The notes: generated by a model not told the origin, from the sequence alone. 64,000 nt of DNA from Patescibacteria group bacterium (GCA_041666325.1 JBAYHC010000003.1:159102-223101); one strand, 5' to 3'. Shown: positions 3,243-63,429, numbered from the stretch's first letter. Numbers and translations are program-made.

Positions 3243-3608
3243 ATGCCTAAATGGATTGACGAGATTGATCCGGAAAGTTTGATAGATAAAGACATTTTTG
3301 AACTCCTAGACCTCAAAGACGCCCCGGAGGATCGCAAGCATCAAATCCTAGAAGACATGATGGAAACCATTCAAAACCGTGTGGTGGCCAGAATTTTGGA
3401 TTCACTCAAAAAAGAAGAGGTTAAGGAATTTGAAGAACTGCTCGACGAGGACGACAACGATAAGGTCGCTCAATTTCTTCAGACAAGAAACATCGACCCT
3501 GTTACATTCACAGCCGAAGAAGCCCTAAATTATAAAATTGAAATTCTCAACCTCATTGCGGCTCAAGAAGATGCGAGCGATGCCGACAATCAAGCTCAGG
3601 ACAGGTAA
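3243..3608 (+). CDS. small acidic helical protein, module 1 partner; paralog of 5837..6160
   Basis: AGGAGGAGG RBS before the ATG. 121 aa, rich in D/E. Shares the LL(D/E)LxDxPE(D/E)RK...IQ(N/T)RV(V/T)ARI(L/F)D(S/E)L...NID...N(Y/F)K(I/A)E(I/L)L(N/S)L(I/L) pattern with ORF 5837..6160. Confidence 0.7.
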   Translation: MPKWIDEIDPESLIDKDIFELLDLKDAPEDRKHQILEDMMETIQNRVVARILDSLKKEEVKEFEELLDEDDNDKVAQFLQTRNIDPVTFTAEEALNYKIEILNLIAAQEDASDADNQAQDR

Positions 3609-3618
3609 GGGAGACAAA

Positions 3619-45206: not shown

Positions 45207-45324
<118 letters not shown>

Positions 45325-45539
45325 CAAAACCATTTTATCAATACTGAATAGTAAATATCTTTTCCAGATGAGGTGCCCCGACATTGGAGCACCGATATCT
45401 GAAAAAGCTGAGCTAGATCTCAAGCGACAGCCAAGCCCCACATACCCGACAAAGTCAGGTATCGAGGTAAAGCCACCGCTAAGTATCATATGCGCTCAAA
45501 AGAATAGGATAAATCCAAGAATTGCTCGTCAAAAATTGA

Positions 45540-48462
<2,923 letters not shown>

Positions 48463-48483
48463 ATATTCTCTAGAGGTCAACGC

Positions 48484-48586
48484 CATTGCATAGCACTGAA
48501 AACCGCAAAGCGACAAAGACCCAAAACCGAAAATTTCGATTTTGGTATTTTGGGGTTTTTGGGATCCTCGGTGCTATGCATTGGGC
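48484..48586. other. about 100-nt hairpin in the 23S 5' leader (14-bp perfect closing stem CCATTGCATAGCAC / GTGCTATGCATTGG)
   Basis: Inverted repeat read directly from the sequence; the interior is itself near-palindromic (CCAAAACCGAAAATTTCGATTTTGG). Confidence 0.5.
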
Positions 48587-49221
48587 TGACTTATTTGACG
48601 AGCAATTGCTGAATTTAATTTCACACTAATTGCTCAATCATTCCCTGATCTCTTTAAGCTTGAGATCCACGGGAATATGTCGGAAGAATTCTTGGTGAAT
48701 TATCTATTCTTCACTTTACTATTCTAGATTGTCAAAGTGCGAGACAGAATCTTAACATACGAACCCTGAAAAAGAACAGCAATGTTCTCTTCAGAACAAA
48801 AACCCTATCTCGTAATTAAGATCCTAAAACAAATGATAGGGACAACGTCACCTGACTTCCTGCGCCTTGCCCATAATCCCCCCTGTTGTAGCGCTCAATT
48901 ACTGAATTATTCGATGCGCCGCCAGAGCACCAGGCCAGATTTAGAGCGGCAGGGTGATGGTCTTTCAACACACAATCCAAGTTACCATATTCATAATCAT
49001 CCTGTCAAGACTTATTCCCAAGTTTTTTCCAATCTCGTTCAATAACCCTATCTGCATCGCACATGACAAATTTTACCGCCCCCCAACTTTCATCGGCAGA
49101 GCGGCAAAAAAACAAACACCTGGGTAATAAAACGCATAGAGCGACAAGGCCATCAATAGATTTGCTCATTTTCATCTAATCGAAAAAATCTGCAGCAAAG
49201 ATAGTGACCAAGATGGCACAG

Positions 49222-49662
49222 TTACTTTGAGGATTGTTGGTCGATTGCCTCACTGATTTTCGAGTCGCCCCTAATATCCTCATAGTAAAGGATTTGGTCC
49301 CGATTAATGTACATTACTCCTTCGGGGCCATGGATCTCGCTTCCAAGTTTGACCAATGAAAGATTCTTTGCAGCGCTTGATCCGGAGCCGCTGAGGTTCG
49401 ATTGGTTCTCATCCCTTAGCTTGGCCAAATCCTCTGGCTTGAAATAGTATACATCCCGAAGCACCACTATCTGCTGGTCAGCGTTTGAAACATGACCAAA
49501 GTACATCTGACCATTTGTGAGAAAAACGGCCTGCTTCTTTGCATTGGCCCCTTGTGTCGTTTCCGGCCGCGAAGAACGACGAGAGCCATAAAGTCTATAC
49601 CCATAATAGCTAGCGACTCCAACCAAGACCAAAACCGAGATTGTCAGCACAAATTTTTTCAT
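49222..49662 (-). CDS. secreted or membrane-anchored hypothetical protein
   Basis: ATG at 49660-49662 with an AAGGAG RBS. N-terminal MKKFVLTISVLVLVGVASYY signal/anchor. Confidence 0.55.
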   Translation of the reverse strand: MKKFVLTISVLVLVGVASYYGYRLYGSRRSSRPETTQGANAKKQAVFLTNGQMYFGHVSNADQQIVVLRDVYYFKPEDLAKLRDENQSNLSGSGSSAAKNLSLVKLGSEIHGPEGVMYINRDQILYYEDIRGDSKISEAIDQQSSK

Positions 49663-49984
49663 AATTCTCCTTGTGTTTCGCATAAAAAGTAAATTTTACT
49701 CTCTGCCGATGAATTATAACCGATAGTTTGTGACGATAATTTAGACAGATTAAACAAAAAACGAAAAATTATTACCTTTTCTTTGTCGTTAAGGCACATT
49801 TATTTGGGTCATTTACTATCAGATACTGAAGTCGAACATGCAGCTTGGATTAACTGGATAAACGAACAAGGGGTGAGCAAGATAGTCTTAATTTTCATTA
49901 TTGAGAATTATTACTCCGGTCGATACCCCCACGACTAACCGAAAAGTCTGCATGGCCATAGATTAGTAAAAATAGGAGAAAGCA

Positions 49985-50959
49985 GTGAATACAATTACAC
50001 GCATTAAGAACGCAACGCGCACCTTGGCCTTGTCTGGTGCACTTGTTCTGACAAGTGGTGCAGGTTTGACAATGGCTGGCTTCAGCAACACTTCGACTAC
50101 AACCAGCGGTACGACAGTATCAGGCAGCAGCTCAACATTGGCTGACATCACGAGTAAAAACCAACTTACCGGACCACAATCACTCAACAAGAATATTACG
50201 AAGATCAATCGCGATCTCAACGTCAAGGTCCTGAACGTTAACCATGAGGACAATTACGTTGATTTTTACCTCAACACTGGCAAGAATGATCTTTTCAAAA
50301 ACACAAAAGTTGAGGACGTATCAACTGGCAGCATCAATGCACGCGTTGCCCTGAATAATAAATCAAACGTTGGCGGCACAAGTGGCAGCACAACCGGCAC
50401 ATCGACACAATCAGTTCTATCAGGCGCTGCAAGCGATCCTGTTCTTAGCAACGCAATCACCGGCCCAGAGTCTGCCAACATCAACAAGGTAGCGCTAAAC
50501 ACTAGCCGCAACCTAGAGATCAAGAACATTGCTGATATCAACAATGATGTTGACATAAATGCCAACACGGGCAAAAACGATGTTATGAAAAACACAGTCG
50601 TTGGAGATGTTTCGACAGGCAACATCAACGTTGCAGGCAGTATCAACAACGTTGCAAACAGCGATCAGTGCATAACCTGCCCTGATTTGTTGGGCCTTTT
50701 CAATGGCAGCGGTAGCGGGGCTGCAAACGTTAGTTCAGACCTTTCTAACAGCACAACCGGTCCAGACTCAGTCAATATCAACAAAGTAAAGGTTAACGAT
50801 TACACGAACGTCGAGGTCAAGAATATCGCCCACATTGACAACAACGTCGATGTTTATGCCAACACAGGCCACAACGATGTTGTGAAAAACACAGTCGTTG
50901 GAGATGTTTCGACAGGTAACGTTAGCGTAGACTTTGCAGTTACCAACCAGGCCAACTAA
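49985..50959 (+). CDS. secreted Asn/Thr-rich repeat protein (3 repeats of about 95 aa)
   Basis: Signal peptide. Repeat unit TGP(D/E)S-N-N...ANTGxND(V)xKNTVVGDVSTGNIN. Paralog of 51029..52975. Confidence 0.65.
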   Translation: MNTITRIKNATRTLALSGALVLTSGAGLTMAGFSNTSTTTSGTTVSGSSSTLADITSKNQLTGPQSLNKNITKINRDLNVKVLNVNHEDNYVDFYLNTGKNDLFKNTKVEDVSTGSINARVALNNKSNVGGTSGSTTGTSTQSVLSGAASDPVLSNAITGPESANINKVALNTSRNLEIKNIADINNDVDINANTGKNDVMKNTVVGDVSTGNINVAGSINNVANSDQCITCPDLLGLFNGSGSGAANVSSDLSNSTTGPDSVNINKVKVNDYTNVEVKNIAHIDNNVDVYANTGHNDVVKNTVVGDVSTGNVSVDFAVTNQAN

Positions 50960-51028
50960 CACGCAGATTGACGAAGGTTAAGGGTTCACACCCTTAACCG
51001 CGCCAGTCTGTGAAGAATAATCAAGGAT

Positions 51029-52975
51029 ATGCCCATGAAAAAGATTATTAGTTATAAAAAGGTAGCACGAGTGTTTGTCACTCTCGCTACAATATTTTCT
51101 CTCCTTCTGCCAATTTCAGCCGCCACGCCAACCTTTGCTGTTGGGCCAGACCAACCAGTGGGGCCGCAAGGACCAGTTGGTCCACAGGTTCCAGTGGGGC
51201 CGCAAGGACCAGTTGGTCCACAGACAGATGGTGAGATACAAACACAAACAGCAACCAGTGGCGCTACAGCTGATCCAGTCATCACAGAAAGCAATAATGT
51301 TACTGGGCCTGATTCGACAAACACAAATCAAACATCATCGAATTCAGAGACAAATATCGAAAACATAAATGATGCAAATATCGAAAACCAAACAACACTG
51401 ACAGCCAATACTGGCAAAAACGACATTGGCAAGAACACTGTGACAGGAGATGTTTCCACAGGATCGATTAACGGTTCTGTCAACGTCATCAATATTGCCA
51501 ACTCCGAACTGGCCCCCGGAAGCACTGTCGGGTCACAGACTGTTGATGGATCACAAACCGGTCAGATAGTATTGAATCCGATCAACCAGAGGTCAGACCT
51601 TTCCAATACCAGCACCGGGCCTGACTCCACAAACAACAATACTGTCTCTAGTAATAACATCATCAAAGTTGTCGACCAAAACAACGCAGAAGCTCTGAAC
51701 AACCTAGTCATCGATGCCAATACCGGCCAAAACAACATCGGTGGTAATACTAAAATCGGAGATGTCACGACTGGAAACATTAACCTCTCAGCCAATCTGA
51801 TCAATCTGCTGAATGTTATGTCGCCGAATTTGACTCTAACACTAGACATTTGGTCAGTGCTCGGAAATTTCAGTGGAGATATAATTCTTAGCAATGGCAC
51901 GACCGGGCCACAATCAAACAATGAAAATAGCATCAACACGAGCGACAGCACTGCAATATCAACTACAAACAACAGCACGATTGATAACGTCTTCAATTTC
52001 CAAACCAACACCGGAGGCAACACAACGGATTCAGGTACCGCAATAGGTAATGTGTCTACAGGTGAAGCAAAAGTGCAGAGCTCAACAACTAACGTAGCCA
52101 ATCTGGATACACCAGTGCTTTATCTGATTAATGTCTTTGGCGAATGGGACGGAGCTCTGGACGGTGTCGATCCGAACAGTGTGATCATTAACACAATGAC
52201 GGGACCGGGCTCAACCAATTTTAATGAGAAAGAGAATAATCAAAGCGTTGATATCACTACAGAGAATAATGCCTCGGCAAGCAACATCGTGACCGTCAAA
52301 GCCAACACTGGCGACAACCATGTCGGCAAGAACACAGTCACTGGCAATCTTAAAACCGGATCAATAAATGTCACTGCTAGCGCCGTCAATATCCTCAATT
52401 CATTCGGGGACAATGCAAAAAATCTAATCCTGAAGGTAATCAATATCTTTGGTAATTGGAAGGGCAATGTTGCAAAACAACCAAAACCAGCCAATAGCAA
52501 TGGTGGTTCGAACAACCAGGTCCCAGGAGGAACGAGTCAGAACAATCCTACACCCGCGACAACATCGACAGAGAGTCCGCAAGCCCCTACTACTAATAAT
52601 GAATCAACTCCAGCGATGCAATCAACCGCAGCCATCGAGAGCAGCACCGGCAGCACAACAAGCAACAATGTTTCAGCCAATCAGAATAGCCAAAAACCAG
52701 CCCAGTCTCCTGTCAACAAGCTCGCAAGCTCAACCAGAAGGGTCCTGTCATCCGAGCAACAACTACCACAAACAATAGATGAGAAGATGGTCCCAACAGA
52801 AAATTCCGTTGATACAGCCGGTGATTTCTCGGGCGTTGTTCTGGCTGCCACAGATGAACAATTGCCATTGGGAGGATCGAGAACACCCTTAGTACACATT
52901 GCTTTGAGCGCTCTTGGAATAACCTTACTCTGGGGACTAGTAGAATTGTTGGCCAGATATTCTAGAGGAAGATAG
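51029..52975 (+). CDS. secreted repeat protein with collagen-like GXY tract, four Asn/Thr-rich repeats, Pro/Thr/Ser-rich stalk and a C-terminal Gly-Gly + TM + basic-tail anchor
   Basis: Signal peptide, (GPQGPVGPQVPV)x2, the same ANTGxN...GDVSTGxIN repeats, and a C-terminal LPLGGSRTPLVHIALSALGITLLWGLVELLARYSRGR. Confidence 0.65.
   Translation: MPMKKIISYKKVARVFVTLATIFSLLLPISAATPTFAVGPDQPVGPQGPVGPQVPVGPQGPVGPQTDGEIQTQTATSGATADPVITESNNVTGPDSTNTNQTSSNSETNIENINDANIENQTTLTANTGKNDIGKNTVTGDVSTGSINGSVNVINIANSELAPGSTVGSQTVDGSQTGQIVLNPINQRSDLSNTSTGPDSTNNNTVSSNNIIKVVDQNNAEALNNLVIDANTGQNNIGGNTKIGDVTTGNINLSANLINLLNVMSPNLTLTLDIWSVLGNFSGDIILSNGTTGPQSNNENSINTSDSTAISTTNNSTIDNVFNFQTNTGGNTTDSGTAIGNVSTGEAKVQSSTTNVANLDTPVLYLINVFGEWDGALDGVDPNSVIINTMTGPGSTNFNEKENNQSVDITTENNASASNIVTVKANTGDNHVGKNTVTGNLKTGSINVTASAVNILNSFGDNAKNLILKVINIFGNWKGNVAKQPKPANSNGGSNNQVPGGTSQNNPTPATTSTESPQAPTTNNESTPAMQSTAAIESSTGSTTSNNVSANQNSQKPAQSPVNKLASSTRRVLSSEQQLPQTIDEKMVPTENSVDTAGDFSGVVLAATDEQLPLGGSRTPLVHIALSALGITLLWGLVELLARYSRGR
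51159..51230. repeat. perfect 36-bp tandem duplication encoding PVGPQGPVGPQV twice
   Basis: ccagtggggccgcaaggaccagttggtccacag(gtt/aca) repeated back-to-back. Confidence 0.75.
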
Positions 52976-53077
52976 CTCCAGTGCTTTTAAAACTAAAACC
53001 TCACCGTATTTGGGTGAGGTTTTAGTTTTTCTTTTGTTATAATAATCAGCTTATCGCTTCTTCTGGCAAAATAGCTT

Positions 53078-54259
53078 TTGATTTTAATCGGGATAAAACT
53101 CATGGGTCCAATTCCTTTGTTCTGGGAGGAACACAACCACAACGTCACAAAAATAATCGGTGATTATGATTTAATTTCAAGCCTAGACCACCTTTGCATC
53201 TCCTCGTCCAATCCCCGCCGGATCGGCAAGAAGGTTGTCATACCTGGCAAATACGTCAAGCTCCCTGCTGTTCGCGAGATAGAGATCGGAGGAGCTCAAT
53301 GCACGCTTATGCCAATCAACTACCAGGACAAACACGTTGCATTCCTGCTCATAAATAAGCATTTTGATAGTCTCGAAAACTATCTACCGCTGATTCAGAG
53401 CTTGGCTGAACTTTCTGTTGCTCACTATGTCGAAAAAAGTAAATACACACCGGACTCAACAGATGTGTTTGTTTCCAACTTGCTCAATCATGATGCCTAC
53501 GATCTTTCAGTCTACAGGACCGAAGCAAGGTCTTTGGGTTATAACTTTAAAATGAAGCGCATCGCCATAGCAATTCACCTGGCAAACTTTAGCTACAGAC
53601 AGCTCTTCTCCCCAAACCATACTGGCTTTGAACGCGAAGAAACTATCAAGAAATGGAAGAAAAGGATCGAATACACCATCAATAGCTTTTTCACCAGCAG
53701 TAAGGATATAATTACTGCCTATATCGGAGAAGATACGTTCGCAGTTTTCAAAACGGTAGAAAAAGACGAAGATGAAAAACTAGGCAGACACATCAAGTTA
53801 TCTCACAGAGCCATCTTCAGCCCTCTCCGTGACGCTTCGATCTCCGATATCACAGTCGGCTTCAGCAATGCCTATTCTGGTCTAATAGGGATAATAAAAT
53901 CGTCCAAAGAGGCGAAAATGGCCCTATCTCTCGGCAATCGAACCAAGGGACCTAATCACAGCTACCACATCGATGATTTTGGTCTCCTGAGCCTGATAGC
54001 ACATGTCGACGAAGAAACTCAAAAACGATTCGCCCAAAGAATTCTGGGGAAAATCACCGACAGCAATATACTCCTCACTCTTGAAATCTTGCTGGAGGAA
54101 AACTTCAATATCTCTCATGCCGCAGAACGCCTCAAGGTCCATCGCAACACAATCATCTACCGCATCCATCAGATCGAGGATATCTTGGGGTACGACCCGC
54201 GGTCATTTGATTCGGTGGTTAATTTCAAAATTGCCTTGTTGATAAACAAGAGATTCTAG
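53078..54259 (+). CDS. PucR/CdaR-family transcriptional regulator
   Basis: C-terminal PucR-type HTH NISHAAERLKVHRNTIIYRIHQIEDILGYDPRS. Confidence 0.65.
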   Translation: MILIGIKLMGPIPLFWEEHNHNVTKIIGDYDLISSLDHLCISSSNPRRIGKKVVIPGKYVKLPAVREIEIGGAQCTLMPINYQDKHVAFLLINKHFDSLENYLPLIQSLAELSVAHYVEKSKYTPDSTDVFVSNLLNHDAYDLSVYRTEARSLGYNFKMKRIAIAIHLANFSYRQLFSPNHTGFEREETIKKWKKRIEYTINSFFTSSKDIITAYIGEDTFAVFKTVEKDEDEKLGRHIKLSHRAIFSPLRDASISDITVGFSNAYSGLIGIIKSSKEAKMALSLGNRTKGPNHSYHIDDFGLLSLIAHVDEETQKRFAQRILGKITDSNILLTLEILLEENFNISHAAERLKVHRNTIIYRIHQIEDILGYDPRSFDSVVNFKIALLINKRF

Positions 54260-54260
54260 G

Positions 54261-54734
54261 CTAGCTTGATCCTGTGATCTCACTGAATCGCCTCGAGACA
54301 TAGCTCTTGTAACGCTTTTGCAGATCGCTGATAGCCTCTTTGTCCAGCCTGCCATTTTCAAGCGAAATCCAAACAGAGGGCATGTCATAGAGATATCGAC
54401 CGATTCCCCACTGCACGGCAGCTCTTTTCATTGCATCAGAAAATCCACCCTTTGTTGGCTCAATATTTGTCTCCTCTGCTCCATCATACTTTGTAATCCA
54501 CTCGCTCTTATCATCGATTCGAATTGAAATTCCACACTTCACACCCTTACTATCCCACCGGTCAAATTCGTTCTTCCAATTAAGCGGGCCAACAATTTCA
54601 TCTAATCTCTCTTGGATCGCTCGATTTGTAACATACGCAAGAGCCATTCCACTTGTTCGGTCGGCATTTATTGAACCGATGCGCCACTCAATATCACCTG
54701 CCTCGAATGGCTTCCGAAGATTGCCCAAATTCAT
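54261..54734 (-). CDS. Rad52/Rad22-family single-strand annealing protein (Sak/DdrA-like)
   Basis: IQERLDEIVGPLNW (cf. RAD52 ALRQRLGPEY) and GGFSDAMKRAAVQWGIGRYLY (cf. [21 protein letters not shown]). 157 aa. Confidence 0.7.
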   Translation of the reverse strand: MNLGNLRKPFEAGDIEWRIGSINADRTSGMALAYVTNRAIQERLDEIVGPLNWKNEFDRWDSKGVKCGISIRIDDKSEWITKYDGAEETNIEPTKGGFSDAMKRAAVQWGIGRYLYDMPSVWISLENGRLDKEAISDLQKRYKSYVSRRFSEITGSS

Positions 54735-54919: not shown

Positions 54920-56176
54920 CTATGGCCGACCAGATACAGTTTTCTGCATCAATATCCGCTTGTCCAACACGTTCATTTTATCTTGAGCATTATAAACAAT
55001 CGGTTCTACTAGGCTGTAGCCAGGCTTGCTCGCCAATATTTTATACTTGCTTTGAGAGAGTAATGCGGAGAACTTACCGTTCTTGTCCGAAATGACAGTC
55101 TTGATTAGCCTGGTGCCAGTATCGTCCATGACGCGGATTAGGGCGAGAGACAGGGGTTGAGAATTATTTTTGTCTAGCACAGATCCCCAAGGAGAATACC
55201 TGAATTTTGCGTAGGCGTTGTAGATCCAAACAACCCAAAGCAGAATATACGTAACAACGATGGGCCAATCAGAGGATGCGAAAGTCCTAGAAATTTTTCC
55301 TATTATCGTCACCGTTCCGATAGCGAGACTGGCGAAAGAAACATAAACCATGAAACGCTCAAACTTTGCCAAAGAAACAACCCAATGGTACTTTTCCTTA
55401 ATCGATTCACTTGTTGGCACCAGAGCAATTCTCGGAACAATCAAGCTCTCTCGCAAGCTTTTAACTTCTATCACTGCGTTCGGTTGATAATATTTATCGG
55501 GTACTAAAGAAAAGTCATATGATTTTTTAATAGCATTGATAACATATCTACCAGGAGGAGCGATAAAACCATATTGACCATCGCTATCAGTATAAGCAAA
55601 GGCAACCACCTTGCCTTCTCCTGCGCTGCTTTCTGTCTTCGACCCAGCCTCAACTAGCTCAACACGAACCATCGGGATTGGCACCTCTGTTCCAATCTCA
55701 ACTACTCGTCCCCAACCTCTCTTTTTCCGACGAAATCCAACCAGATAGATGATCGAGTTCCAAAGAGAAAGAGAAAACTCCCTCAAAGAAGAGAAAACGG
55801 TTACGGCATTTGCAGCTGGAGCAGCCATAGCACCAATACCAGCTATGCTCAGGGCAGCCGCTGAAATTGCATTAGGAACCTGTTCTGAAGGTATGCCGAT
55901 ATATTCTGCAATCTTCATTATTGGAGCTTCCACTATTTCGATTGGATCAGGCACATTTGGATCCGAGAAAATTCCACCATATCCTCTAACCTCCTTAGTG
56001 AAACCAAAGGTCGAAATAAAATAAAGGGCAATAAAAATAACTGCTGCACGAGTGATCGTTAGCAGAAACATACCTTCATTTTTATTATCCCTGAAAGATT
56101 TTATTTTATCTCCGTATGCAATGACTATATTATAATGTTTATTGCGATGAGGAGCAAACATGGCCAGTGCTTGCAA
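54920..56176 (-). CDS. membrane protein with carboxypeptidase-regulatory-like (transthyretin-like) beta-sandwich domains
   Basis: Segments GRVVEIGTEVPIPMVRVELVEAGS...YTDSDGQYGF and ALIRVMDDTGTRLIKTVISDKNGKFSA; several TM helices. Start uncertain. Confidence 0.5.
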   Translation of the reverse strand: MQALAMFAPHRNKHYNIVIAYGDKIKSFRDNKNEGMFLLTITRAAVIFIALYFISTFGFTKEVRGYGGIFSDPNVPDPIEIVEAPIMKIAEYIGIPSEQVPNAISAAALSIAGIGAMAAPAANAVTVFSSLREFSLSLWNSIIYLVGFRRKKRGWGRVVEIGTEVPIPMVRVELVEAGSKTESSAGEGKVVAFAYTDSDGQYGFIAPPGRYVINAIKKSYDFSLVPDKYYQPNAVIEVKSLRESLIVPRIALVPTSESIKEKYHWVVSLAKFERFMVYVSFASLAIGTVTIIGKISRTFASSDWPIVVTYILLWVVWIYNAYAKFRYSPWGSVLDKNNSQPLSLALIRVMDDTGTRLIKTVISDKNGKFSALLSQSKYKILASKPGYSLVEPIVYNAQDKMNVLDKRILMQKTVSGRP

Positions 56177-56255: not shown

Positions 56256-57770
56256 ATGATACCATTCAAGCCCACCCACACCACTAGTTTTTTTGTTTAC
56301 TACGTTATTCTCTTCGGCACAATTGCTTTGGGCATTTTTTTGCGCTTCTATCACTTGGGACAACAGTCTTACTGGATGGACGAAGGCTATACTATCAACG
56401 CAGTACTATCAATTACCGAAAAGGGTCGCTCTGTTCTAGACTCTGGCCAACCATACTTCTGTCCACTTTACTGCTATCCTACTGCATGGTTAACAAAAAT
56501 ACTAGGAGAAAATGCCGCCACCTATCGCCTCATGTCTGCACTCGTTGGCAGTCTATTTATAATTGTGTTTTGGACTACGGTCAAAAATATTTACGGCAAG
56601 AACATCGCACTGGTCGGCACTATTTTTGTTTCTCTTTCTTACTGGCAGATTGCATGGTCTCGTCAGGCGAGATGGTATACCCTCCTTACGCTAGCTACAT
56701 GGCTATCAATATATTTTCTTTACCAATACGTTCACCATGAGAAAAATAACAATAGCCGGATAGCTTTAAGTTTAGTCTTTCTTGTTATTGCCATCATTGT
56801 TCAACCAATTGCCTATTTGCTGATCCCGATATATACAACGTTTCTGGCTTGGTCGAAGAAATCATTGAGGGAAATATTAGCAGTGCTCTGTCTTGCGACA
56901 ATTGTATATCTTGTGTCAGAGATACTGAGCACAAACAAGGACAACAATTTTGTTATGAACGTTTTGGGACAAATTAAACTCAACTACACCTTGCCGTACT
57001 ATCTCGGCTTCTATATCCGTAGCTACTGGCCATTGATCTTTTTCGGTCTGATTGCGCTATCCAAAAAGAAACAAAATGATACCGGCAGTTTCTACAAACT
57101 TGGGATCTGCACTTTCCTAATTTACCTAATATCCATATCCCTGTTTACGAACATAATTCACTATCGATACCTGTTTCACCTCACACCATTCCTTTACCTC
57201 TCGGCCTCGATCGGAGCGCTTACCATCCTTGACCAAATTAAACTAACATGGACCAAATATCTCGTCTTGACGATGATTGTAACTGTTTTTTTCGCAACCG
57301 GTCACGGCATATTGCAACCAAAAAGTTTCTATTCCCTTGAATCAGATGATCCGTCGAAGATCAAGCGACCCTATTATGCCTACACCCCCCAGCCAGATTT
57401 CAACGCAGTCTATCGTTTTATCGGACAGAATCGCCAGAATGGTGATATTGTTATTTCCTCTCATCCACAATTTAACAAAATATTTCTGAATGAGCCGGGC
57501 TATTGGATTCAATACGATTATTTGGGCATCAGCGATAGACCAAATACTGTAATAAACGGAAAAGAATACTATGTCGGGGCAGAAACCATCGCTAGCAAAA
57601 ATGCGCTAGAAAAAATAGTACTTAGTGGTACACACGGATTTATCATTACCGACTTTTCCGCTTCTAGCAAAATAGATGAGAGCACAATGAATTACATCGC
57701 AGCCAACCTTCAACAGGTTTTCTCAAAAACAGAGAATGCCTACTCCAAGATTCACGTCTATCGATTCTAG
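56256..57770 (+). CDS. GT-C glycosyltransferase of the PMT/ArnT (GT39/GT83-like) family
   Basis: Polytopic; the conserved WMDEGYT (DE motif) lies in the first extracytoplasmic loop. Confidence 0.7.
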   Translation: MIPFKPTHTTSFFVYYVILFGTIALGIFLRFYHLGQQSYWMDEGYTINAVLSITEKGRSVLDSGQPYFCPLYCYPTAWLTKILGENAATYRLMSALVGSLFIIVFWTTVKNIYGKNIALVGTIFVSLSYWQIAWSRQARWYTLLTLATWLSIYFLYQYVHHEKNNNSRIALSLVFLVIAIIVQPIAYLLIPIYTTFLAWSKKSLREILAVLCLATIVYLVSEILSTNKDNNFVMNVLGQIKLNYTLPYYLGFYIRSYWPLIFFGLIALSKKKQNDTGSFYKLGICTFLIYLISISLFTNIIHYRYLFHLTPFLYLSASIGALTILDQIKLTWTKYLVLTMIVTVFFATGHGILQPKSFYSLESDDPSKIKRPYYAYTPQPDFNAVYRFIGQNRQNGDIVISSHPQFNKIFLNEPGYWIQYDYLGISDRPNTVINGKEYYVGAETIASKNALEKIVLSGTHGFIITDFSASSKIDESTMNYIAANLQQVFSKTENAYSKIHVYRF

Positions 57771-58717
57771 TTTTCAATAATCTCAGCGATTTCATAATTA
57801 GTAATCTTCTTGGTAGCATAGAAATTTTTAACCACCATGTCCATAAGCAAACCAAAGATAATTAATTGAAAGCCAGCAAAAGTGCCCGAGACAGCAAGAT
57901 AGGTCAGCGACGACGAAGAGAGATCGGCACCTAGATAAATCTTATTATAAAAAGCAATTCCTCCTGCCATAAATGATGCCAAGAAAACAGCAATACCCAG
58001 AGTTCCAAAGAGGTGAAGCGGACGGTTGACATACTTCCCCCAAAACCAGAGAGAAAGAATATCTAGTGCCCCCTTAATCGTTCTCTTCCAGTTATACTTG
58101 GTCTTGCCATATTTTCTGGAGTGGTGTTTCACCACTTCTTCCCCAATCCTATAGCCCCTAATTTTCAGCAAAGCAGGTATAAATCGATGCATTTCACCAT
58201 ACAGATCTATATTATCAAAACACTCACGTTTAAAAATTTTTAGGGTGCAACCACTATCGTGAATGCCATCGTGAATTAGCATGCTCCGTAGAATGTGCGC
58301 TCCCCTTGAGGCAAGGCGCTTAAAAATAGGATCCTTTCTATATTTGCGCCAGCCACAAATACAATCGTAGTTGCCTTCTTTGATCTTTTTGAGTAATTTG
58401 GGAATATCTGCCGGATCATTTTGGCCGTCACCATCCAGGGTTACTATATATTCTTTTTTGGCCTTTTTGATGCCCGCATCAAGAGCAGCCGTCTGCCCAA
58501 ATTTTTTGCGCAATCTAATTATTGTTATCCCTGGCAGGCCAGCCAATATCTTGCTCGTCTTATCAAAAGATCCATCATCAACAAAAATGATCTCGGCGAC
58601 TATCTCATTTTTATCGCAAACAGACTTTATCTTTTGGTACAATGCAGAAATAGCACCCGCCTCATTGTGTGCAGGCACCACGATCGATATGTGCGGTTTT
58701 TCTTCAGTGGTTCTCAT
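57767..58717 (-). CDS. GT2 polyprenol-phosphate glycosyltransferase (Dpm1/ArnC-like)
   Basis: ISIVVPAHNE, FVDDGSFD and TLDGDGQNDP motifs, plus two C-terminal TM helices. Internal ATG at 58715-58717 chosen; the track ORF adds 48 aa. Confidence 0.75.
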   Translation of the reverse strand: MRTTEEKPHISIVVPAHNEAGAISALYQKIKSVCDKNEIVAEIIFVDDGSFDKTSKILAGLPGITIIRLRKKFGQTAALDAGIKKAKKEYIVTLDGDGQNDPADIPKLLKKIKEGNYDCICGWRKYRKDPIFKRLASRGAHILRSMLIHDGIHDSGCTLKIFKRECFDNIDLYGEMHRFIPALLKIRGYRIGEEVVKHHSRKYGKTKYNWKRTIKGALDILSLWFWGKYVNRPLHLFGTLGIAVFLASFMAGGIAFYNKIYLGADLSSSSLTYLAVSGTFAGFQLIIFGLLMDMVVKNFYATKKITNYEIAEIIEN

Positions 58718-58949
58718 GTCGCCAACCCAAACATTAGTAGATGGATATCTAATACGGACGATACTAAAACACACCATAAAACACAACTGTGCTTTGCCTG
58801 TAGCCGACAGGACAGGTGCACTACTACACTTCCGAGCACGTCCTTCGACTCTGAGGGACACTCAGGACTCGAAGAGAGCAATACCGAATGACTGCGGGCA
58901 TTACCACATCTTGTAATAAAATTAGTAGTCAAACCAAAGGGTCTAAATA

Positions 58950-59858
58950 ATGAAATGCTGTCCAATCTGCAGTAACTCGAAACCGATCGTCGATCGGAGA
59001 CTAAATAAAATAAAATTGGTAAAGTGCACAAAATGCGAGTTTGTTTACGCTGACCTGCCTGACGAGACAATAGTAAGAGAAAATTCTTCGTATTCCGAAA
59101 ACGCCGACTACCAATACAGCATCCAACAGACAAGCCTAGATAAGCTCTGGTTCAAATCTATCGCTCTAAAGCTAGTCAATGCTAGCGGAACGAACAAGGG
59201 GAAAATTTTGGACATTGGCTGCGGAAATGGCGTTTTCCTGGCATCTTTTCCCCAAAATTGGGACAAGTTCGGCCTAGACGTTTCACCCTGGTCAAAAAAG
59301 GGAGCGCTGCAAAACCGATATCATTTGATTCAAAAAGAACTGGAAAACGCCGAGCTACCAGACAATCACTTCGATATCATTACCAGTTTCTCAACCTTTG
59401 AGCATATCCCCCAGCCCAAGAAGCATTTAAAGGAAATACTAAGAATATTGAAGCCGGGAGGAATCGTATACATCGGGGCCGTGCCGAATTATGGCACAAT
59501 CAGTGTGCTGTTAAATCTCTCTAGCTTTGCGCGTAACGTTCCACCAGAACACTGCAATTTTTTTACAAAAAAAACTTTATCGTATCTGTTGGCTATGTCT
59601 GGAGTTGATGCAGAACTCAAATATAAGAAAATTAGAACTTATGGTATACCGGAAATACACAGGATTTATAGATACATAAACCAAAAGACCAGCAAAAATA
59701 ACAAACTTGCATTGAAAAACAACGGTCCATGCACAGCCGGACAGACAAAGACACGCCTTGGCCTATCCTGGCTGTTATCCGTCTACGATGCACTACCGTT
59801 TCCCTTCTTCACCGGTGACAAACTCGAGCTCTTAGCCATGAAGAAAGATAATAAATGA
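58950..59858 (+). CDS. class I SAM-dependent methyltransferase with an N-terminal zinc ribbon
   Basis: CPICSN...CTKCEF, then motif I ILDIGCGNGVF. Confidence 0.65.
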   Translation: MKCCPICSNSKPIVDRRLNKIKLVKCTKCEFVYADLPDETIVRENSSYSENADYQYSIQQTSLDKLWFKSIALKLVNASGTNKGKILDIGCGNGVFLASFPQNWDKFGLDVSPWSKKGALQNRYHLIQKELENAELPDNHFDIITSFSTFEHIPQPKKHLKEILRILKPGGIVYIGAVPNYGTISVLLNLSSFARNVPPEHCNFFTKKTLSYLLAMSGVDAELKYKKIRTYGIPEIHRIYRYINQKTSKNNKLALKNNGPCTAGQTKTRLGLSWLLSVYDALPFPFFTGDKLELLAMKKDNK

Positions 59859-61006
59859 AAAATCTACTTGTCCTAAATTATGAGTTTCCCCCGCTTGGCG
59901 GCGGAGCTGGTCCAGTTAGCTACGAGGTTGCCAGGGCCCTATCTGAAATGGGAAATTATAATATCGATGTTGTAACGATGGGCTTCAGCGGCCTGAACAC
60001 ATACGAAGAGATCAATCCTCTCTTTCGCATCCATCGAGTAAGATGCTTGCGCTCAAAAAAAGAGATTTGCTACCCCTGGGAACAAGCAACTTACCTTTTT
60101 TCGGCCTACCGAAAATGCAAACTACTAATGGCGAATAAAAAGTATGATATTTGTCATACTCACTTTTTGATTCCAACCGGAATTCTTGCCTTGCTTCTAA
60201 AACGGAGGTTTGTTCTGCCATACATCATCACGACCCATGGAAGCGACGTCCATGGGCACATTCCTCGCCTGAATAAGTATCATGCCATAATGAAACCCCT
60301 GTCTCGATCAATTGTTTCTAACGCCTTGGCTATCACATCACCATCACAAAAATTGTTATTAGAAATTGAACAACATTTTGACAACATAAAATCGAAAACC
60401 ACTATTATTTCTCATGGCATAATACCAGATATGTTTATCCCTGCTTCCCATAAAGGCAACCATATCCTTGTAGTAAATCGGCTTGTACCGATAAAGAGAA
60501 CAGATGAAATAATTAGAGCAATTTCAGAATGTCATCTAGGAAACTGGGATGTTAACATTGTTGGAGATGGCCCAGAGATTGGCAATCTCAAAAAGCTATC
60601 GAGGCAACTCAAAGTTGCCCATAAGATTAAATTCTGGGGATGGATCGATCACGGCGACAATAAGTTAAAAGATATATACAGCAAGGCGAAGGTTTTTGTT
60701 TCTGCAAGCAACAACGACAGCTTCAATATAAGTATCTTGGAGGCAATACAAGCCGGCTGCATTATAATTGCAAGCAACAAGAATGGCTTGATTGATGCTC
60801 TTGATAAATCTGGTGCAAAAATAATTACTTACCAGTCCGGCGATATGAAGGGATTAATCGCTAAACTTACCCATGCAATAAATCACACCGAGCACTACGA
60901 CGAAGCAGTGCTTCGCAATCGAGAAATAATCAACGCTGACTATAGCTGGAAGAAGATTGCTGCATCTTATCATTCAATTATTAACCATGTCCTTGACCAT
61001 GTCTAA
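59855..61006 (+). CDS. GT4-family (GT-B) glycosyltransferase
   Basis: GT-B architecture; C-terminal motif ...SNNDSFNISILEAIQAGCIIIAS (EX7E-type). Confidence 0.75.
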   Translation: MKNLLVLNYEFPPLGGGAGPVSYEVARALSEMGNYNIDVVTMGFSGLNTYEEINPLFRIHRVRCLRSKKEICYPWEQATYLFSAYRKCKLLMANKKYDICHTHFLIPTGILALLLKRRFVLPYIITTHGSDVHGHIPRLNKYHAIMKPLSRSIVSNALAITSPSQKLLLEIEQHFDNIKSKTTIISHGIIPDMFIPASHKGNHILVVNRLVPIKRTDEIIRAISECHLGNWDVNIVGDGPEIGNLKKLSRQLKVAHKIKFWGWIDHGDNKLKDIYSKAKVFVSASNNDSFNISILEAIQAGCIIIASNKNGLIDALDKSGAKIITYQSGDMKGLIAKLTHAINHTEHYDEAVLRNREIINADYSWKKIAASYHSIINHVLDHV

Positions 61007-62069
61007 AAAAATTTCCGCAGTCATAGTCAACTACAACAATAAGAAGGATATTGTCGAGCTACTCAGTGCCCTGATTGAGATGAAAGACACAGTCCAGGAA
61101 ATTATTGTTGTTGACGACTGCTCAACTGACAACGGTCCAGAACTGATTCGGCGCTTATTTCCCTCGGTACTCCTCCTAACAACATCGACAAATTCTGGCC
61201 CGGGATCAGCTCGAAATATCGGCATTAGGCAGGCAAAAAGCAAACTTGTACTGTGTCTTGATAGCGACATGGAAATACAGGCAAAAGATATCGAGAGACT
61301 GGTAAGTCACTCGGTCAAGAACACCAACTATCAATTCTATATACCGCGCATTGTTTTTAGTAGCAACCGCAAGCTAATCCAGCACGAGGATTGTCCGTTT
61401 CACTACCTGGGATTCTCCTTAAGATGCAGCAATTATGGCAAAAATATTCAAGACTGTGATAGCACTGCAAGAGCTATAGACACTTTCCAGAGCGGTTGTT
61501 TTCTCTTTGTAAGGAGGCCAAACCACACAGTCAGACCATTCGATGAAAATTATTTTTATGGCTTTGAAGACCTGGACTTTTCTTTTCAAAATACCATTGC
61601 TGGCAACAGAGCGATTCTGATTCCTACTGCAATTGCTTGCCACAAAAACACTCCTACGCAAGGACTGTCCTTCAAAAACAAGGGGAAGTACCCTACAAGG
61701 CGCCTGTTCTATATTGTGCGAAACAAATGGATTTTTGTTCTTAAAAACTATCCTATCACTACTCTCGTCCTAATTCTTCCGTTGGAGCTGATGCTTGATG
61801 CTGGCACTGCGCTATATTCAACTTTATACACGAACGATAAGTTTCTAGTATTAAAAAGTTACGCCTCCTTAATGCGCGCAATGCCGAATGTCCTATCGAG
61901 AAGAAGAAACCGATGCTCTTATCAACTAAATTCACCGGCGGCTCTTATCAAAAATAAACCAATGCCTTTGCCCCAAGTCCTTGAAAAGCAGACTCTGCTA
62001 TCTTCCCTGCTTCCGTATCTCAACAAGCTTCTGTTTGCCTACGGTAAATACATCTTAAGACTCAAGTAG
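60999..62069 (+). CDS. GT2-family glycosyltransferase
   Basis: ISAVIVNYNN...VVDDCSTD...DSD motifs. The ATG at 60999 overlaps the upstream stop (ATGTCTAA). Confidence 0.7.
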   Translation: MSKKISAVIVNYNNKKDIVELLSALIEMKDTVQEIIVVDDCSTDNGPELIRRLFPSVLLLTTSTNSGPGSARNIGIRQAKSKLVLCLDSDMEIQAKDIERLVSHSVKNTNYQFYIPRIVFSSNRKLIQHEDCPFHYLGFSLRCSNYGKNIQDCDSTARAIDTFQSGCFLFVRRPNHTVRPFDENYFYGFEDLDFSFQNTIAGNRAILIPTAIACHKNTPTQGLSFKNKGKYPTRRLFYIVRNKWIFVLKNYPITTLVLILPLELMLDAGTALYSTLYTNDKFLVLKSYASLMRAMPNVLSRRRNRCSYQLNSPAALIKNKPMPLPQVLEKQTLLSSLLPYLNKLLFAYGKYILRLK

Positions 62070-63092: not shown

Positions 63093-63429
63093 TTTTAACT
63101 CTCTTGCTGATTGTAGTCCCGACAAAATAGCCTTCCGGGCCATATTTTTTCTATCACTAACCAGAAAATAACAGTGGTCATCTTCGATTACCAAACAAGG
63201 ACCTAAACAATGTCGCAACTCCAATCAAACGTTTCGAGAGAACTATTCTGGCTGGAATTGGCCACACTTTTTAAATATCTTTTATTGATTAACATATCAC
63301 ATATCGGTTATGATGACCGCGACGCTCGCCTGATTCTAGGCCCCTTTCTAGCTCACAATCAACAACTATGAACCGAGAGCAAATATGGCACTTAAAATAT
63401 AATGCTAACAATGTCTCAGAAAATTATCA

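What the first reader, a model, noticed from the sequence alone, without database searches (positions are those of the whole stretch)
49985..52975. Tandem secreted Asn/Thr-rich repeat proteins: collagen-like tract, slippage-prone 36-bp duplication and a sorting-signal-like C-terminus
Two adjacent paralogs share a roughly 70-95-aa repeat (TGPDS.N.N...ANTGxNDVxKNTVVGDVSTGNIN) that I cannot assign to a known family.

The larger protein additionally has:
- a signal peptide followed by (GPQGPVGPQVPV)2 collagen-like GXY triplets, encoded by a perfect 36-bp tandem duplication (51159-51230) and therefore length-variable;
- a long P/T/S/Q-rich stalk;
- a C-terminus with LPLGG/GlyGly + hydrophobic helix + RYSRGR, the tripartite layout of sortase, rhombosortase or exosortase sorting signals.

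These are likely surface fibrils or adhesins. They sit next to a glycosylation locus and are rich in potential O-/N-glycosylation sites.
Basis: partly seen in the sequence, partly recalled or inferred. Interest (0 to 1): 0.65.

Follow-up and report, generated by a model that had tools for sequence, protein, structure and literature searches.

The report
Unannotated Patescibacteria surface-repeat protein pair
Two adjacent genes of an ultra-small (Patescibacteria/CPR) bacterium encode a secreted and a membrane-anchored protein built from the same unannotated ~100-residue Asn/Thr/Gly-rich beta repeat. The pair is conserved across this phylum and probably forms a cell-surface structure, but here it is not a sortase-sorted or collagen protein as first proposed.

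Summary
The repeats are real. There are 3 copies in ORF A (49985-50959) and 4 in ORF B (51035-52975), 32-63% identical over a 71-aa core. No Pfam, NCBIfam, PHROGs, PDB-sequence or Foldseek (PDB, BFVD) match was found.

The repeat profile hits 3,327 50%-identity clusters. Every named member is Patescibacteria. The pair of A (3 repeats, no anchor) and B (4 repeats, stalk, TM helix) is adjacent in 17 of 17 loci, always with a strong hairpin between the two genes.

The "collagen" tract is two runs of 3 GXY triplets. The "36-bp duplication" is 33 exact bases at a 36-base offset (51155-51223).

LPLGG is not conserved. What is conserved in B's C-terminus is the TM helix itself (W-x3-E...R/K, 32 of 49 close homologs). 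The window holds no sortase, rhomboid or exosortase.

In 11 of 17 related loci a sortase follows the B gene, but it co-occurs perfectly (10/10 vs 0/6) with a third paralog ending in FFPAG + TM + basic tail. The window lacks both.

Best reading: A is an abundant secreted subunit and B is its membrane-anchored base, together forming a CPR-specific surface layer or fibril. This is a new, unannotated family of a known general kind. The assembly mechanism is inferred, not shown.

The parts
49985..50959 (+). ORF A (324 aa, GTG start): secreted, anchorless 3-repeat protein ('A-type'). Proposed major subunit.
   Evidence: ORF. (AGGAG 6 nt upstream of the GTG). (28 homologs of ~290 aa with the same signal peptide, all ending exactly at the end of repeat 3). 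(3 repeat hits).
49985..50080 (+). Signal-peptide-like N-terminus of A (MNTITRIKNATRTLALSGALVLTSGAGLTMAG). The boundary is approximate.
   Evidence: Read directly from the sequence. Aligned N-termini of homologs P0124-P0126.
50156..50446 (+). A repeat 1
50447..50743 (+). A repeat 2. Its linker carries a CxxC (C229, C232).
50744..50956 (+). A repeat 3. Core only: it lacks the post-core 'INIFGxWxG'-type strand, and the protein ends here in all A-type homologs.
50962..51012 (+). Intercistronic stem-loop between A and B, with no T-run. Proposed partial terminator or mRNA stabiliser that would give more A than B.
   Evidence: dG -29.9 kcal/mol, z -7.2, 0 of 200 shuffles as stable. (a strong hairpin in the A-B spacer of 12 of 12 loci, without sequence conservation).
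51029..52975 (+). ORF B (648 aa from ATG 51029; more likely 646 aa from ATG 51035): the 4-repeat, membrane-anchored 'B-type' protein.
   Evidence: (P0001 is 100% identical, 646 aa, annotated as a Patescibacteria group bacterium). (AAGGA lies 7 nt before 51035).
51029..51139 (+). Signal peptide of B (…LLLPISAATPTFA | VGP…)
   Evidence: sequence. (helix 8-26). (homologs).
51140..51223 (+). Pro/Gly tract (xPx)9 with Gly interrupted twice. The family consensus is GPxxPx. It lies at the mature N-terminus, i.e. the membrane-distal tip.
   Evidence: (only a weak low-complexity match to the BclA collagen-like region, E 2.4e-4).
51155..51223 (+). In-frame tandem DNA repeat: 33 exact bases at a 36-base offset (1.9 copies).
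51290..51601 (+). B repeat 1
   Evidence: (beta domain 109-190, pLDDT 85-93).
51602..51889 (+). B repeat 2
   Evidence: (213-287, pLDDT 83-96).
51890..52186 (+). B repeat 3
   Evidence: (312-389, pLDDT 81-94).
52187..52483 (+). B repeat 4
   Evidence: (410-482, pLDDT 83-95).
52484..52861 (+). Low-complexity S/T/N/P/Q spacer ('stalk'), predicted disordered.
   Evidence: pLDDT below 50 over 500-618. (composition).
52862..52876 (+). LPLGG pentapeptide, 9 aa before the hydrophobic helix. Not conserved in the family.
52886..52972 (+). C-terminal TM helix with the conserved W-G-x-x-E motif (LLWGLVELLA), plus the basic tail RYSRGR.
   Evidence: helix 620-647, pLDDT 77-92. (motif in 32 of 49 close homologs vs 1 of 2392 background windows).
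52989..53039 (+). Intrinsic terminator ending the A-B operon (17-bp stem plus a T-run).
   Evidence: (dG -25 kcal/mol, z -6.4).
49222..49683 (-). Divergent 153-aa N-terminally anchored protein of unknown function. A conserved neighbour of the cassette in the sortase-less locus type.
   Evidence: 42-50% identical orthologs in the same position in L004, L006, L010. (137-141-aa genes in the same position in L014, L015, L018). (no family hit).
53078..54259 (+). PucR/CdaR-family transcription regulator, a recurrent neighbour of the cassette. The true start is probably near 53103-53144.
   Evidence: HTH_30 1.5e-18, GGDEF_2 5e-8. (the same family next to the cassette in L004, L006, L010, L014, L018, L019).

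Best explanation
A and B are a bicistronic operon. It encodes the two components of a Patescibacteria-specific cell-surface structure built from an unannotated ~100-aa Asn/Thr/Gly-rich beta repeat.

B is the membrane-anchored base. It is Sec-exported. Its C-terminal helix (conserved W-G-x-x-E) plus the RYSRGR tail acts as a stop-transfer anchor, giving type-I topology. A ~130-aa disordered S/T/P/Q/N spacer carries the four-repeat beta module and a short Pro/Gly tip outward through the wall.

A is the secreted, anchorless three-repeat paralog. It is made in excess, because of the hairpin after its gene. It associates with B and with itself through the homologous repeats to form the exposed layer or fibril.

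Related genomes add a third, two-repeat paralog with an FFPAG + TM + basic sorting signal and a dedicated sortase, which would give covalent wall attachment. This lineage has lost both and relies on B's TM anchor.

Shown: the repeat family, the domain architecture, the conserved A-B gene pair and hairpin, the conserved TM motif, the absence of a sortase in the window, and the sortase/FFPAG co-occurrence elsewhere.

Inferred: surface location, A-B co-assembly, stoichiometry, and the nature of the structure.
For: REPEAT FAMILY
- Seven copies, 32-63% identical.
- The profile finds 3,327 clusters at E<=1e-3 and 976 at E<=1e-30 among 1.84 billion representatives.
- All named members are Patescibacteria, Berkelbacteria, Saccharibacteria or Parcubacteria.
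- There is no Pfam, NCBIfam, PHROGs or PDB match.

ARCHITECTURE
- Four beta domains with block-mean pLDDT of about 81-96, a disordered stalk, and a confident C-terminal helix.
- pTM is 0.53 even though 40% of the chain is disordered. The same repeat modelled alone collapses (pLDDT 50, no strands). This suggests the four repeats form one integrated body.
- Exactly 4 repeats is the modal count, in 92 of 148 proteins.

OPERON
- A-type and B-type genes are adjacent and co-oriented in 17 of 17 loci.
- There is an SD before both genes and a strong terminator only after B.
- A stable hairpin sits in the A-B spacer in 12 of 12 loci tested.

ANCHOR
- W-x3-E-x2-6-R/K occurs in 32 of 49 close homologs versus 1 of 2392 background windows.
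- A-type proteins always end at the repeat core with no anchor.

NO SORTING ENZYME HERE
-.

SORTASE TRACKS THE FFPAG PARALOG
- 10 of 10 versus 0 of 6 loci, Fisher p = 1.2e-4.
- The closest homolog's locus (P0002, L018) has the same sortase-less layout as the window.
Against: - There is no experimental or co-folding evidence that A binds B. Only monomer AF2 was possible.
- The most conserved residues (T-G-P-x-S-x-N-x-N at the start of each repeat) fall in low-pLDDT segments. The model therefore does not explain the key motif.
- The single-repeat collapse might reflect a heterogeneous alignment rather than biology.
- Only 64 kb of a 224-kb contig was visible, so a sortase acting on LPLGG could be encoded elsewhere.
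- LPx[TAG]G-like motifs are enriched upstream of the TM helix in the family: 21 of the 120 listed homologs within 70 aa, mostly among the closest ones, against 0.036 expected per 70 aa.
- There are no expression or proteomic data.
Confidence: 0.55

Rival explanations
1. B is a sortase (or rhombosortase/exosortase) substrate: LPLGG/Gly-Gly + hydrophobic helix + RYSRGR is a cleaved sorting signal, and B ends up covalently attached to the wall.
For: - The tripartite layout is present.
- LPx[TAG]G-like motifs are enriched within 70 aa upstream of the TM helix in B-type homologs, in 21 of 120. A few are canonical, e.g. P0018 with LPVTG and P0047 with LPEAG directly before the helix.
- A sortase gene directly follows the B-type gene in 11 of 17 loci.
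- More than half of CPR genomes encode a sortase (PMC6744442).
Against: - There is no sortase, rhomboid or exosortase in the 64-kb window.
- The NCBIfam LPXTG, GlyGly-CTERM and PEP-CTERM models and Pfam Gram_pos_anchor give no hit.
- LPLGG is not positionally conserved. The column where other homologs carry LPx[TA]G aligns to QLPQTI in B, about 30 aa further upstream.
- The B-type proteins that do sit beside a sortase (P0003, P0029, P0033) have no LPXTG-like motif.
- The sortase co-occurs perfectly with a different paralog carrying FFPAG.
- The TM helix is sequence-conserved, which is unusual for a discarded sorting peptide.
Confidence: 0.15
2. This is a functional-amyloid or beta-solenoid fibre system analogous to curli CsgB/CsgA, Fap, or the long and short chaplins. 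B is the anchored nucleator. A is the secreted polymerising subunit, whose repeats stack into a cross-beta or solenoid fibre.
For: - The pair consists of an anchored and a secreted paralog built from the same Asn/Gly/Ser/Thr-rich repeats.
- The invariant residues are only G, N, S and T, as in turn-forming and Asn-ladder positions.
- A single repeat does not fold alone in AF2, but the four-repeat module does.
- The top Foldseek PDB hits, although insignificant, are FapC (9nqd), CsgA (8c50) and SufD beta-helices.
- In relatives, a sortase-anchored paralog exists alongside the secreted one, as with the chaplins. The comparison with chaplins rests on my own knowledge of that system.
Against: - The Foldseek E-values are 0.45-2 with TM-scores of 0.04-0.08, i.e. 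noise level.
- hhalign of the repeat profile against E. coli CsgA gives a probability of 0.2%.
- The repeat is ~100 aa with four strands, far larger than curli or Fap repeats.
- B's four repeats carry position-specific decorations, which suggests a defined globular module rather than open-ended stacking.
Confidence: 0.12
3. A and B are independent adhesins or host-recognition proteins of an episymbiont, or components of an S-layer. They happen to be paralogs and do not assemble on each other.
For: - CPR bacteria are largely episymbionts with CPR-specific surface proteins (PMC6744442; 10.64898/2026.03.03.709456).
- S-layer proteins have been predicted in Patescibacteria (10.1101/2024.05.28.596244).
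- B's layout (signal peptide, beta domains, Thr/Ser-rich stalk, C-terminal TM helix) is the layout of TM-anchored S-layer proteins. That comparison rests on my own knowledge.
- Distant homologs fuse the repeat module to DUF11, Big_7 or dockerin domains, which fits a modular binding or display role.
Against: - The strict A-B adjacency in 17 of 17 loci, the conserved intercistronic hairpin, and the anchorless A with a truncated last repeat all argue for a functional pair.
- There are no SLH or other known S-layer domains.
Confidence: 0.15

Closest known systems
Streptomyces chaplins (long, sortase-anchored ChpA-C plus short secreted ChpD-H), and curli CsgB/CsgA
   Same: A paralog set in which an anchored member and a secreted anchorless member share the same repeat or domain and are encoded together. 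In relatives, one paralog carries a sortase signal. Composition is rich in Asn, Gly, Ser and Thr.
   Different: There is no sequence or profile similarity (hhalign against CsgA gives 0.2%). The repeat is ~100 aa rather than ~20-50 aa. The anchor here is a conserved TM helix. Amyloid behaviour is untested.
LPXTG cell-wall-sorted surface proteins of Gram-positive bacteria (sortase substrates)
   Same: Signal peptide, repeats, a Pro/Ser/Thr-rich wall-spanning spacer, and a C-terminal hydrophobic segment with a basic tail. Related loci carry an adjacent sortase.
   Different: There is no conserved LPXTG in B, no hit to the LPXTG models, and no sortase in the window. The TM helix is sequence-conserved. 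In relatives the sortase pairs with an FFPAG-bearing paralog, a motif I do not know from the described sortase classes.
TM-anchored S-layer systems (e.g. Sulfolobales SlaA/SlaB; C. glutamicum PS2, which has a C-terminal TM helix)
   Same: An exposed component plus a component with a stalk and a C-terminal TM helix, co-transcribed with the exposed component first. TM-anchored S-layer proteins are described in 10.1101/2024.05.28.596244.
   Different: A and B are paralogs of each other. There is no evidence for a 2-D lattice and no similarity to known S-layer folds in the PDB Foldseek search.
Pam pili of Candidatus Mycosynbacter amalyticus (a CPR-specific donor-strand-exchange pilus; bioRxiv 10.64898/2026.03.03.709456)
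   Same: CPR-restricted, Sec-exported, previously unannotated surface-filament proteins, with operon members anchored by C-terminal TM helices. The donated strand is the most conserved element. By analogy, the repeat-initial TGPxSxNxN here is the most conserved element and is unmodelled in the monomer.
   Different: Pam pilins are two-domain proteins (a 9-strand beta-sandwich plus a truncated Ig-like domain) with PapD-like chaperones in the operon. Here there are 3-4 homologous ~100-aa repeats and no chaperone-like gene.
Bacterial collagen-like proteins (BclA, Scl)
   Same: A short Gly/Pro-rich tract after the signal peptide. There is a weak profile match to the BclA collagen-like region (E 2.4e-4). 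One homolog (P0008) has 13 GXY triplets.
   Different: In B the longest uninterrupted GXY run is 3, and the family consensus is GPxxPx. Pfam Collagen gives no hit for B and is below its cut-off even for P0008 (25.7 vs 27.2 bits).

Membership tests
LPXTG sortase substrate (TIGR01167 / PF00746) | LPXTG-type pentapeptide immediately before the hydrophobic segment, conserved among orthologs | tested here: not met
   B has LPLGG, which lacks the Thr/Ala at position 4. NCBIfam and Pfam give no hit at E<=1. The motif is absent at this position in most homologs, and an LPx[TAG]G-like motif is present in only 21 of the 120 listed homologs.
LPXTG sortase substrate (TIGR01167 / PF00746) | Hydrophobic segment followed by a basic tail at the extreme C-terminus | tested here: met
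   …HIALSALGITLLWGLVELLA-RYSRGR. AF2 predicts a helix at 620-647.
LPXTG sortase substrate (TIGR01167 / PF00746) | A sortase encoded in the genome | tested here: inconclusive
   None in the 64-kb window (tblastn with 5 CPR sortases; Pfam scans). The rest of the 224-kb contig and the MAG could not be read. Sortases are adjacent in 11 of 17 related loci, but they are linked to the FFPAG paralog.
GlyGly-CTERM / rhombosortase | Match to the GlyGly-CTERM domain model, plus a rhombosortase gene | tested here: not met
   No NCBIfam hit at E<=1. No rhomboid-family protein among the window ORFs scanned. The 'GG' is not conserved in homologs.
PEP-CTERM / exosortase | PEP motif + TM + Arg-rich tail, plus an exosortase gene | tested here: not met
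   No PEP motif, no NCBIfam hit, and no exosortase in the window.
Collagen triple-helix repeat (PF01391) | A long uninterrupted (G-X-Y)n run | tested here: not met
   The longest run in B is 3 triplets, occurring twice. No Pfam hit. Only a weak low-complexity match to BclA.
DUF11 / Cna-B type repeat | Profile match of the repeat to PF01345 / PF05738 | tested here: not met
   No hit for A or B at E<=1. In P0100 and P0082 the DUF11 domains lie at 478-591, after the repeat module at 76-473.
Curli / Fap functional amyloid | Sequence or fold similarity to the CsgA or FapC beta-solenoid repeats | tested here: not met
   hhalign against CsgA gives a probability of 0.2%. Foldseek E-values are 0.45 (FapC) and 2.1 (CsgA), with TM-scores below 0.1.
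Curli / Fap functional amyloid | Amyloid fibre formation by the secreted subunit, nucleated by the anchored paralog | not testable with these tools
   Requires biochemistry.
Pam pilus (CPR donor-strand-exchange pilus) | Two-domain pilin (beta-sandwich NTD, linker strand, truncated Ig-like CTD) with PapD-like TM-anchored chaperones in the operon | tested here: not met
   The architecture here is 3-4 homologous repeats. The neighbouring genes are a 153-aa protein with no family hit and a PucR regulator, with no chaperone-like gene. Direct sequence comparison was not possible.
Unannotated 'TGPxS...NTGxN' repeat cassette (A-type + B-type), defined here | A-type (3 repeats, no anchor) immediately upstream of B-type (GPxxPx tract, 4 repeats, spacer, TM helix), with an intercistronic hairpin | tested here: met
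   The window matches all of these features. The same layout is seen in 17 of 17 loci, and the hairpin in 12 of 12 tested.

The most novel reading that the evidence does not exclude
The TGPxS/NTGxN repeat defines a new beta fold and a phylum-wide, CPR-specific surface-fibre or lattice system with three paralog classes.
- C-type is wall-linked by a dedicated sortase that recognises a non-canonical FFPAG signal.
- B-type is anchored by a conserved W-G-x-x-E TM helix.
- A-type is the free major subunit.

Assembly would occur by inter-subunit complementation. A's always-truncated last repeat, and the invariant but unmodelled TGPxSxNxN strand, would be completed in trans. This would be analogous to, but unrelated to, donor-strand exchange in chaperone-usher and Pam pili.
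Probability: 0.2. Interest if true: 0.8.

Novelty: new variant of a known kind. Interest (0 to 1): 0.52.

Why it matters
Patescibacteria make up a large share of bacterial diversity, mostly live attached to other cells, and their envelopes are almost uncharacterised.

This cassette is widespread: 3,327 50%-identity clusters match the repeat. It has no model in Pfam or NCBIfam, and I found no paper describing it. It appears built for high expression of a secreted subunit on a membrane-anchored base.

If it forms the outer layer or fibrils of these cells, it is a candidate for the structures seen by cryo-EM on ultra-small bacteria, and a candidate for host contact.

The related-locus observation gives a concrete, testable new sortase-substrate pair: a dedicated sortase that tracks an FFPAG + TM + basic paralog.

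For annotation, the result also shows that a tripartite C-terminus alone is not enough to call a sorting signal.

Tried and rejected
FAMILY AND STRUCTURE SEARCHES THAT FOUND NOTHING
- Pfam, NCBIfam and PHROGs scans of A and B gave nothing but noise: PepSY_2 at E 0.034, a glucuronidase model at 0.002, and a PHROG 'DNA polymerase' hit on the Pro/Gly tract.
- PDB sequence-profile searches with the full-length and single-repeat profiles gave only BclA low complexity and a chance hit to ribosomal protein L30.
- Foldseek of the B model against PDB and BFVD gave no hit at E<=1e-3.
- A single-repeat AF2 model failed (pLDDT 50), so it was not used for fold search.

HYPOTHESES REJECTED
- DGR / hypervariable target. 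No reverse transcriptase is in the window, and there is no near-identical TR/VR pair. The DNA repeats are only 60-93% identical paralogous segments.
- Isopeptide, ester or thioester cross-linked domains. The invariant residues are only G, N, S and T. There is no conserved K, Q, C, H, D or E.
- N-glycosylation enrichment. Sequon counts equal shuffled expectation.
- A conserved glycosylation link. Glycosyltransferases are not consistently near the cassette in the 17 loci.
- The antisense ORFs inside A and B (e.g. 51562-52101, minus strand) show 'conservation' in BLAST only because they mirror the conserved repeats.

SEARCHES WITH LIMITED YIELD
- The search for related loci with the 60-sequence alignment failed because no stretch was conserved enough. 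The 15-sequence alignment gave only 6 loci.
- A search with the C-type paralog gave only 8 hits.
- Five literature searches found no description of this family. The Pam pilus preprint describes a different protein family.

Full report
SETTING

The window comes from a Patescibacteria (CPR) genome. ORF B is 100% identical to an NCBI protein annotated [quoted passage not shown], on a 224-kb contig. The closest relatives with names are Berkelbacteria and other Patescibacteria MAGs.

The finding lies between a 23S-5S rRNA pair (45207-48465, minus strand) and a PucR/CdaR-type regulator. The window also carries a dcw/peptidoglycan cluster, so the organism makes a wall.

THE OBSERVATION

Both ORFs exist as described. 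The repeat is real. TGPxS motifs start at aa 62, 159 and 258 of A and at aa 92, 196, 292 and 391 of B. The seven units align without difficulty and are 32-63% identical over a 71-aa core, with a period of 96-104 aa.

A's GTG start is supported by an AGGAG 6 nt upstream and by about 20 homologs that share the same signal-peptide-like N-terminus. B more probably starts at ATG 51035, because AAGGA lies 7 nt upstream and NCBI calls it at 646 aa.

Three details needed correction.
- The tandem DNA repeat is 33 exact bases at a 36-base offset (51155-51223, 1.9 copies), not 2 x 36 at 51159-51230.
- The "collagen-like" tract is nine xPx triplets in which Gly is interrupted twice, so the longest GXY run is 3. 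The family consensus is a GPxxPx hexad of variable length. Pfam Collagen does not hit.
- The glycosylation genes are real but start 3.3 kb downstream, beyond a strong terminator and three unrelated genes. N-x-S/T sequons are no more frequent than composition predicts.

WHAT THE PROTEINS ARE

No library recognises either protein: Pfam, NCBIfam and PHROGs and PDB sequences by profile.

AlphaFold2 with a 60-sequence alignment models B as follows:
- a signal helix;
- a disordered Pro/Gly and Thr-rich N-terminal region;
- four beta-rich domains at 109-190, 213-287, 312-389 and 410-482, with block-mean pLDDT of roughly 81-96;
- a disordered spacer at 500-618;
- a confident C-terminal helix at 620-647.

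pTM is 0.53 although 40% of the chain is disordered. When repeat 4 is modelled alone with a 63-sequence repeat alignment it collapses completely (pLDDT 50, no strands). Each of B's four repeats also has its own position-specific conserved extension: APGSSVG after repeat 1, D-W-LLG-GDI after repeat 2, FYIVNVFG-W-G after repeat 3, and IINIFGNW-G after repeat 4. Together these results suggest the four repeats form one integrated body rather than independent beads. I could not inspect coordinates, so this remains inference.

One unexplained point stands out. The most conserved residues of the family, T-G-P-x-S-x-N-x-N at the start of every repeat, are invariant in the 15 closest homologs. Yet they fall exactly in the low-confidence segments 197-215, 291-309 and 391-409.

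HOW WIDESPREAD IT IS

The repeat profile matches 3,327 representatives of 50%-identity clusters at E<=1e-3, of which 2,455 are at E<=1e-10 and 976 at E<=1e-30. Four repeats is the modal count.

Every member that carries a name is from Patescibacteria, Parcubacteria, Berkelbacteria or Saccharibacteria. In distant Parcubacteria members the repeat module is fused upstream of DUF11, DUF7507 and NPCBM_assoc domains, and in others to dockerin or Big_7.

GENE NEIGHBOURHOOD

I examined 17 distinct loci: the window, 10 found through exact protein look-ups, and 6 from a genome scan.

In 17 of 17 loci, an A-type gene lies immediately upstream of a B-type gene on the same strand.
- A-type: about 290 aa, signal peptide, 3 repeats, ending exactly at the end of the third repeat core, with no anchor.
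- B-type: about 600-700 aa, Pro/Gly tract, 4 repeats, spacer, TM helix.

The A-B spacer holds a strong stem-loop in all 12 loci I folded, with no sequence conservation. In the window it spans 50962-51012, with dG -29.9 kcal/mol and z -7.2. A 17-bp-stem intrinsic terminator follows B. This is the usual signature of an operon tuned to make more of the first product than the second.

Two locus types exist.
- In 11 of 17 loci, a sortase gene (PF04203) follows B directly. It passes the general sortase model TIGR01076 but none of the class-specific cut-offs.
- In the remaining 6 (the window, L006, L010, L014, L015 and L018, the last being the locus of B's closest homolog) there is no sortase. Instead there is a conserved divergent gene of about 130-153 aa, usually with a PucR/CdaR regulator.

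THE SORTING-SIGNAL QUESTION

B's tail has the tripartite look, but several results argue against a cleaved signal in this genome.
- LPLGG is not conserved in position.
- The LPXTG, GlyGly-CTERM and PEP-CTERM models do not hit.
- The window encodes no sortase, rhomboid or exosortase.
- No other secreted protein in the window has such a tail.

What is conserved is the helix itself. W-x3-E followed by R/K occurs in 32 of 49 close homologs, against 1 of 2392 background windows. Saccharibacteria-type members conserve an acidic residue just before the basic tail. A sequence-conserved helix points to a retained membrane anchor, possibly one that contacts a partner, rather than a discarded sorting peptide.

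The picture is not entirely clean, however. LPx[TAG]G-like motifs are enriched upstream of the helix in B-type homologs: 21 of the 120 listed homologs have one within 70 aa, against 0.036 expected per 70 aa. A few are canonical (P0018, P0047).

The sortase in related loci has a better candidate substrate. Every sortase-containing locus whose upstream region is visible (10 of 10) has a third paralog, and none of the six sortase-less loci does (Fisher p = 1.2e-4). This third paralog has 2 repeats, a Pro/Gly/Ala spacer, then FF[PAQ][AS]G immediately before a hydrophobic helix and basic residues. Thirteen examples were collected, and the motif is FFPAG in nine of them. The window's lineage lacks both the third paralog and the sortase.

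MECHANISM (BEST SUPPORTED)

B is exported by Sec and retained by its C-terminal helix and basic tail. Its long disordered spacer places the four-repeat module and the Pro/Gly tip outside the wall. A is secreted in excess and held at the surface by association with B, and probably with itself, through the homologous repeats. The result would be a surface layer or fibril.

The steps that are shown are the architecture, the operon structure, the conservation patterns and the absence of a sortase in the window. The steps that are inferred are localisation, A-B binding, stoichiometry and the higher-order form.

The rivals are sortase-mediated anchoring of B, a curli/chaplin-like amyloid system, and independent adhesins or an S-layer. 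They are listed separately with their evidence.

COMPARISON WITH KNOWN SYSTEMS

Functionally, the system resembles pairs of anchored and secreted paralogs (chaplins, CsgB/CsgA) and TM-anchored S-layer pairs. It fails the membership tests for LPXTG substrates, GlyGly-CTERM, PEP-CTERM, collagen, DUF11 and curli.

The recently described CPR-specific Pam pilus (bioRxiv 10.64898/2026.03.03.709456) is a different family: two-domain Ig-like pilins with PapD-like chaperones. It does show that CPR cells build unannotated, Sec-dependent surface filaments with TM-anchored base components.

Five literature searches found no description of the present family.

VERDICT

This is a real, widespread and unannotated CPR surface-protein cassette. 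It is a new variant of a known general kind (anchored and secreted surface repeat proteins), of moderate interest. A more novel reading (a new fold, complementation-based assembly and an FFPAG sortase signal) remains open.

Noticed in passing
Related loci L001, L002, L004, L007, L009, L012, L013, L016, L017, L019 (for example L004:6083-6979 and the sortase at L004:9962-10564): A third paralog class has 2 repeats, a spacer, FF[PAQ][AS]G, a TM helix and a basic tail. It co-occurs perfectly with a small sortase placed directly after the B-type gene (10/10 vs 0/6 loci, p = 1.2e-4). FFPAG is a candidate non-canonical sortase sorting motif in Patescibacteria.
   Followed up: partly
window 50962-51012, and the A-B spacers of 11 other loci: A strong hairpin with no T-run is present between the A-type and B-type genes in 12 of 12 loci, without sequence conservation. 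It is probably a conserved device for differential expression or mRNA stability.
   Followed up: yes
window 45207-48465 (minus strand): 23S and 5S rRNA genes have no 16S gene upstream: 48466-49221 holds none, and a protein gene follows. The rRNA operon therefore appears unlinked within this window.
   Followed up: no
window 54261-54734 (minus strand): A 157-aa Rad52/Rad22-family protein (Pfam 9e-17) matches the phage Erf-like ssDNA-annealing family phrog_1097 at 1.9e-55. It looks like a phage-type recombinase sitting alone between a regulator and a membrane protein.
   Followed up: partly
window 3538-5685, 6203-9901, 11843-14170 (plus strand): Three large ORFs (715, 1232 and 775 aa) have no Pfam match at E<=1e-4. 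They do not contain the repeat studied here.
   Followed up: no
window 49222-49683 (minus strand): A 153-aa N-terminally anchored protein with no family match is conserved (42-50% identity) and divergently placed next to the cassette in the sortase-less locus type, and also in L004. It may be a functional partner.
   Followed up: partly
window 50669-50680 (A aa 229-232): A CxxC pair (CITC) in the linker after A's repeat 2 holds the only cysteines in A; B has none. A similar CxxC (CHGC, CITC) occurs at the same place in the closest A-type homologs.
   Followed up: no
window 54920-56176 (minus strand) and 56256-63224: A multi-TM protein with two CarboxypepD_reg-like domains is followed by a PMT_2 (GT-C) glycosyltransferase, three GT2, a methyltransferase and a GT4. 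This is a plausible envelope-glycan locus, but it is not linked to the cassette in other genomes.
   Followed up: partly
B aa 197-215, 291-309, 391-409 (window about 51617-51673, 51899-51955, 52199-52255): The invariant TGPxSxNxN segment that opens each repeat is the best-conserved part of the family, yet it is the only part of the repeat module that AF2 leaves at pLDDT below 50. This is unexplained. It may be an intermolecular or ligand-dependent element.
   Followed up: partly
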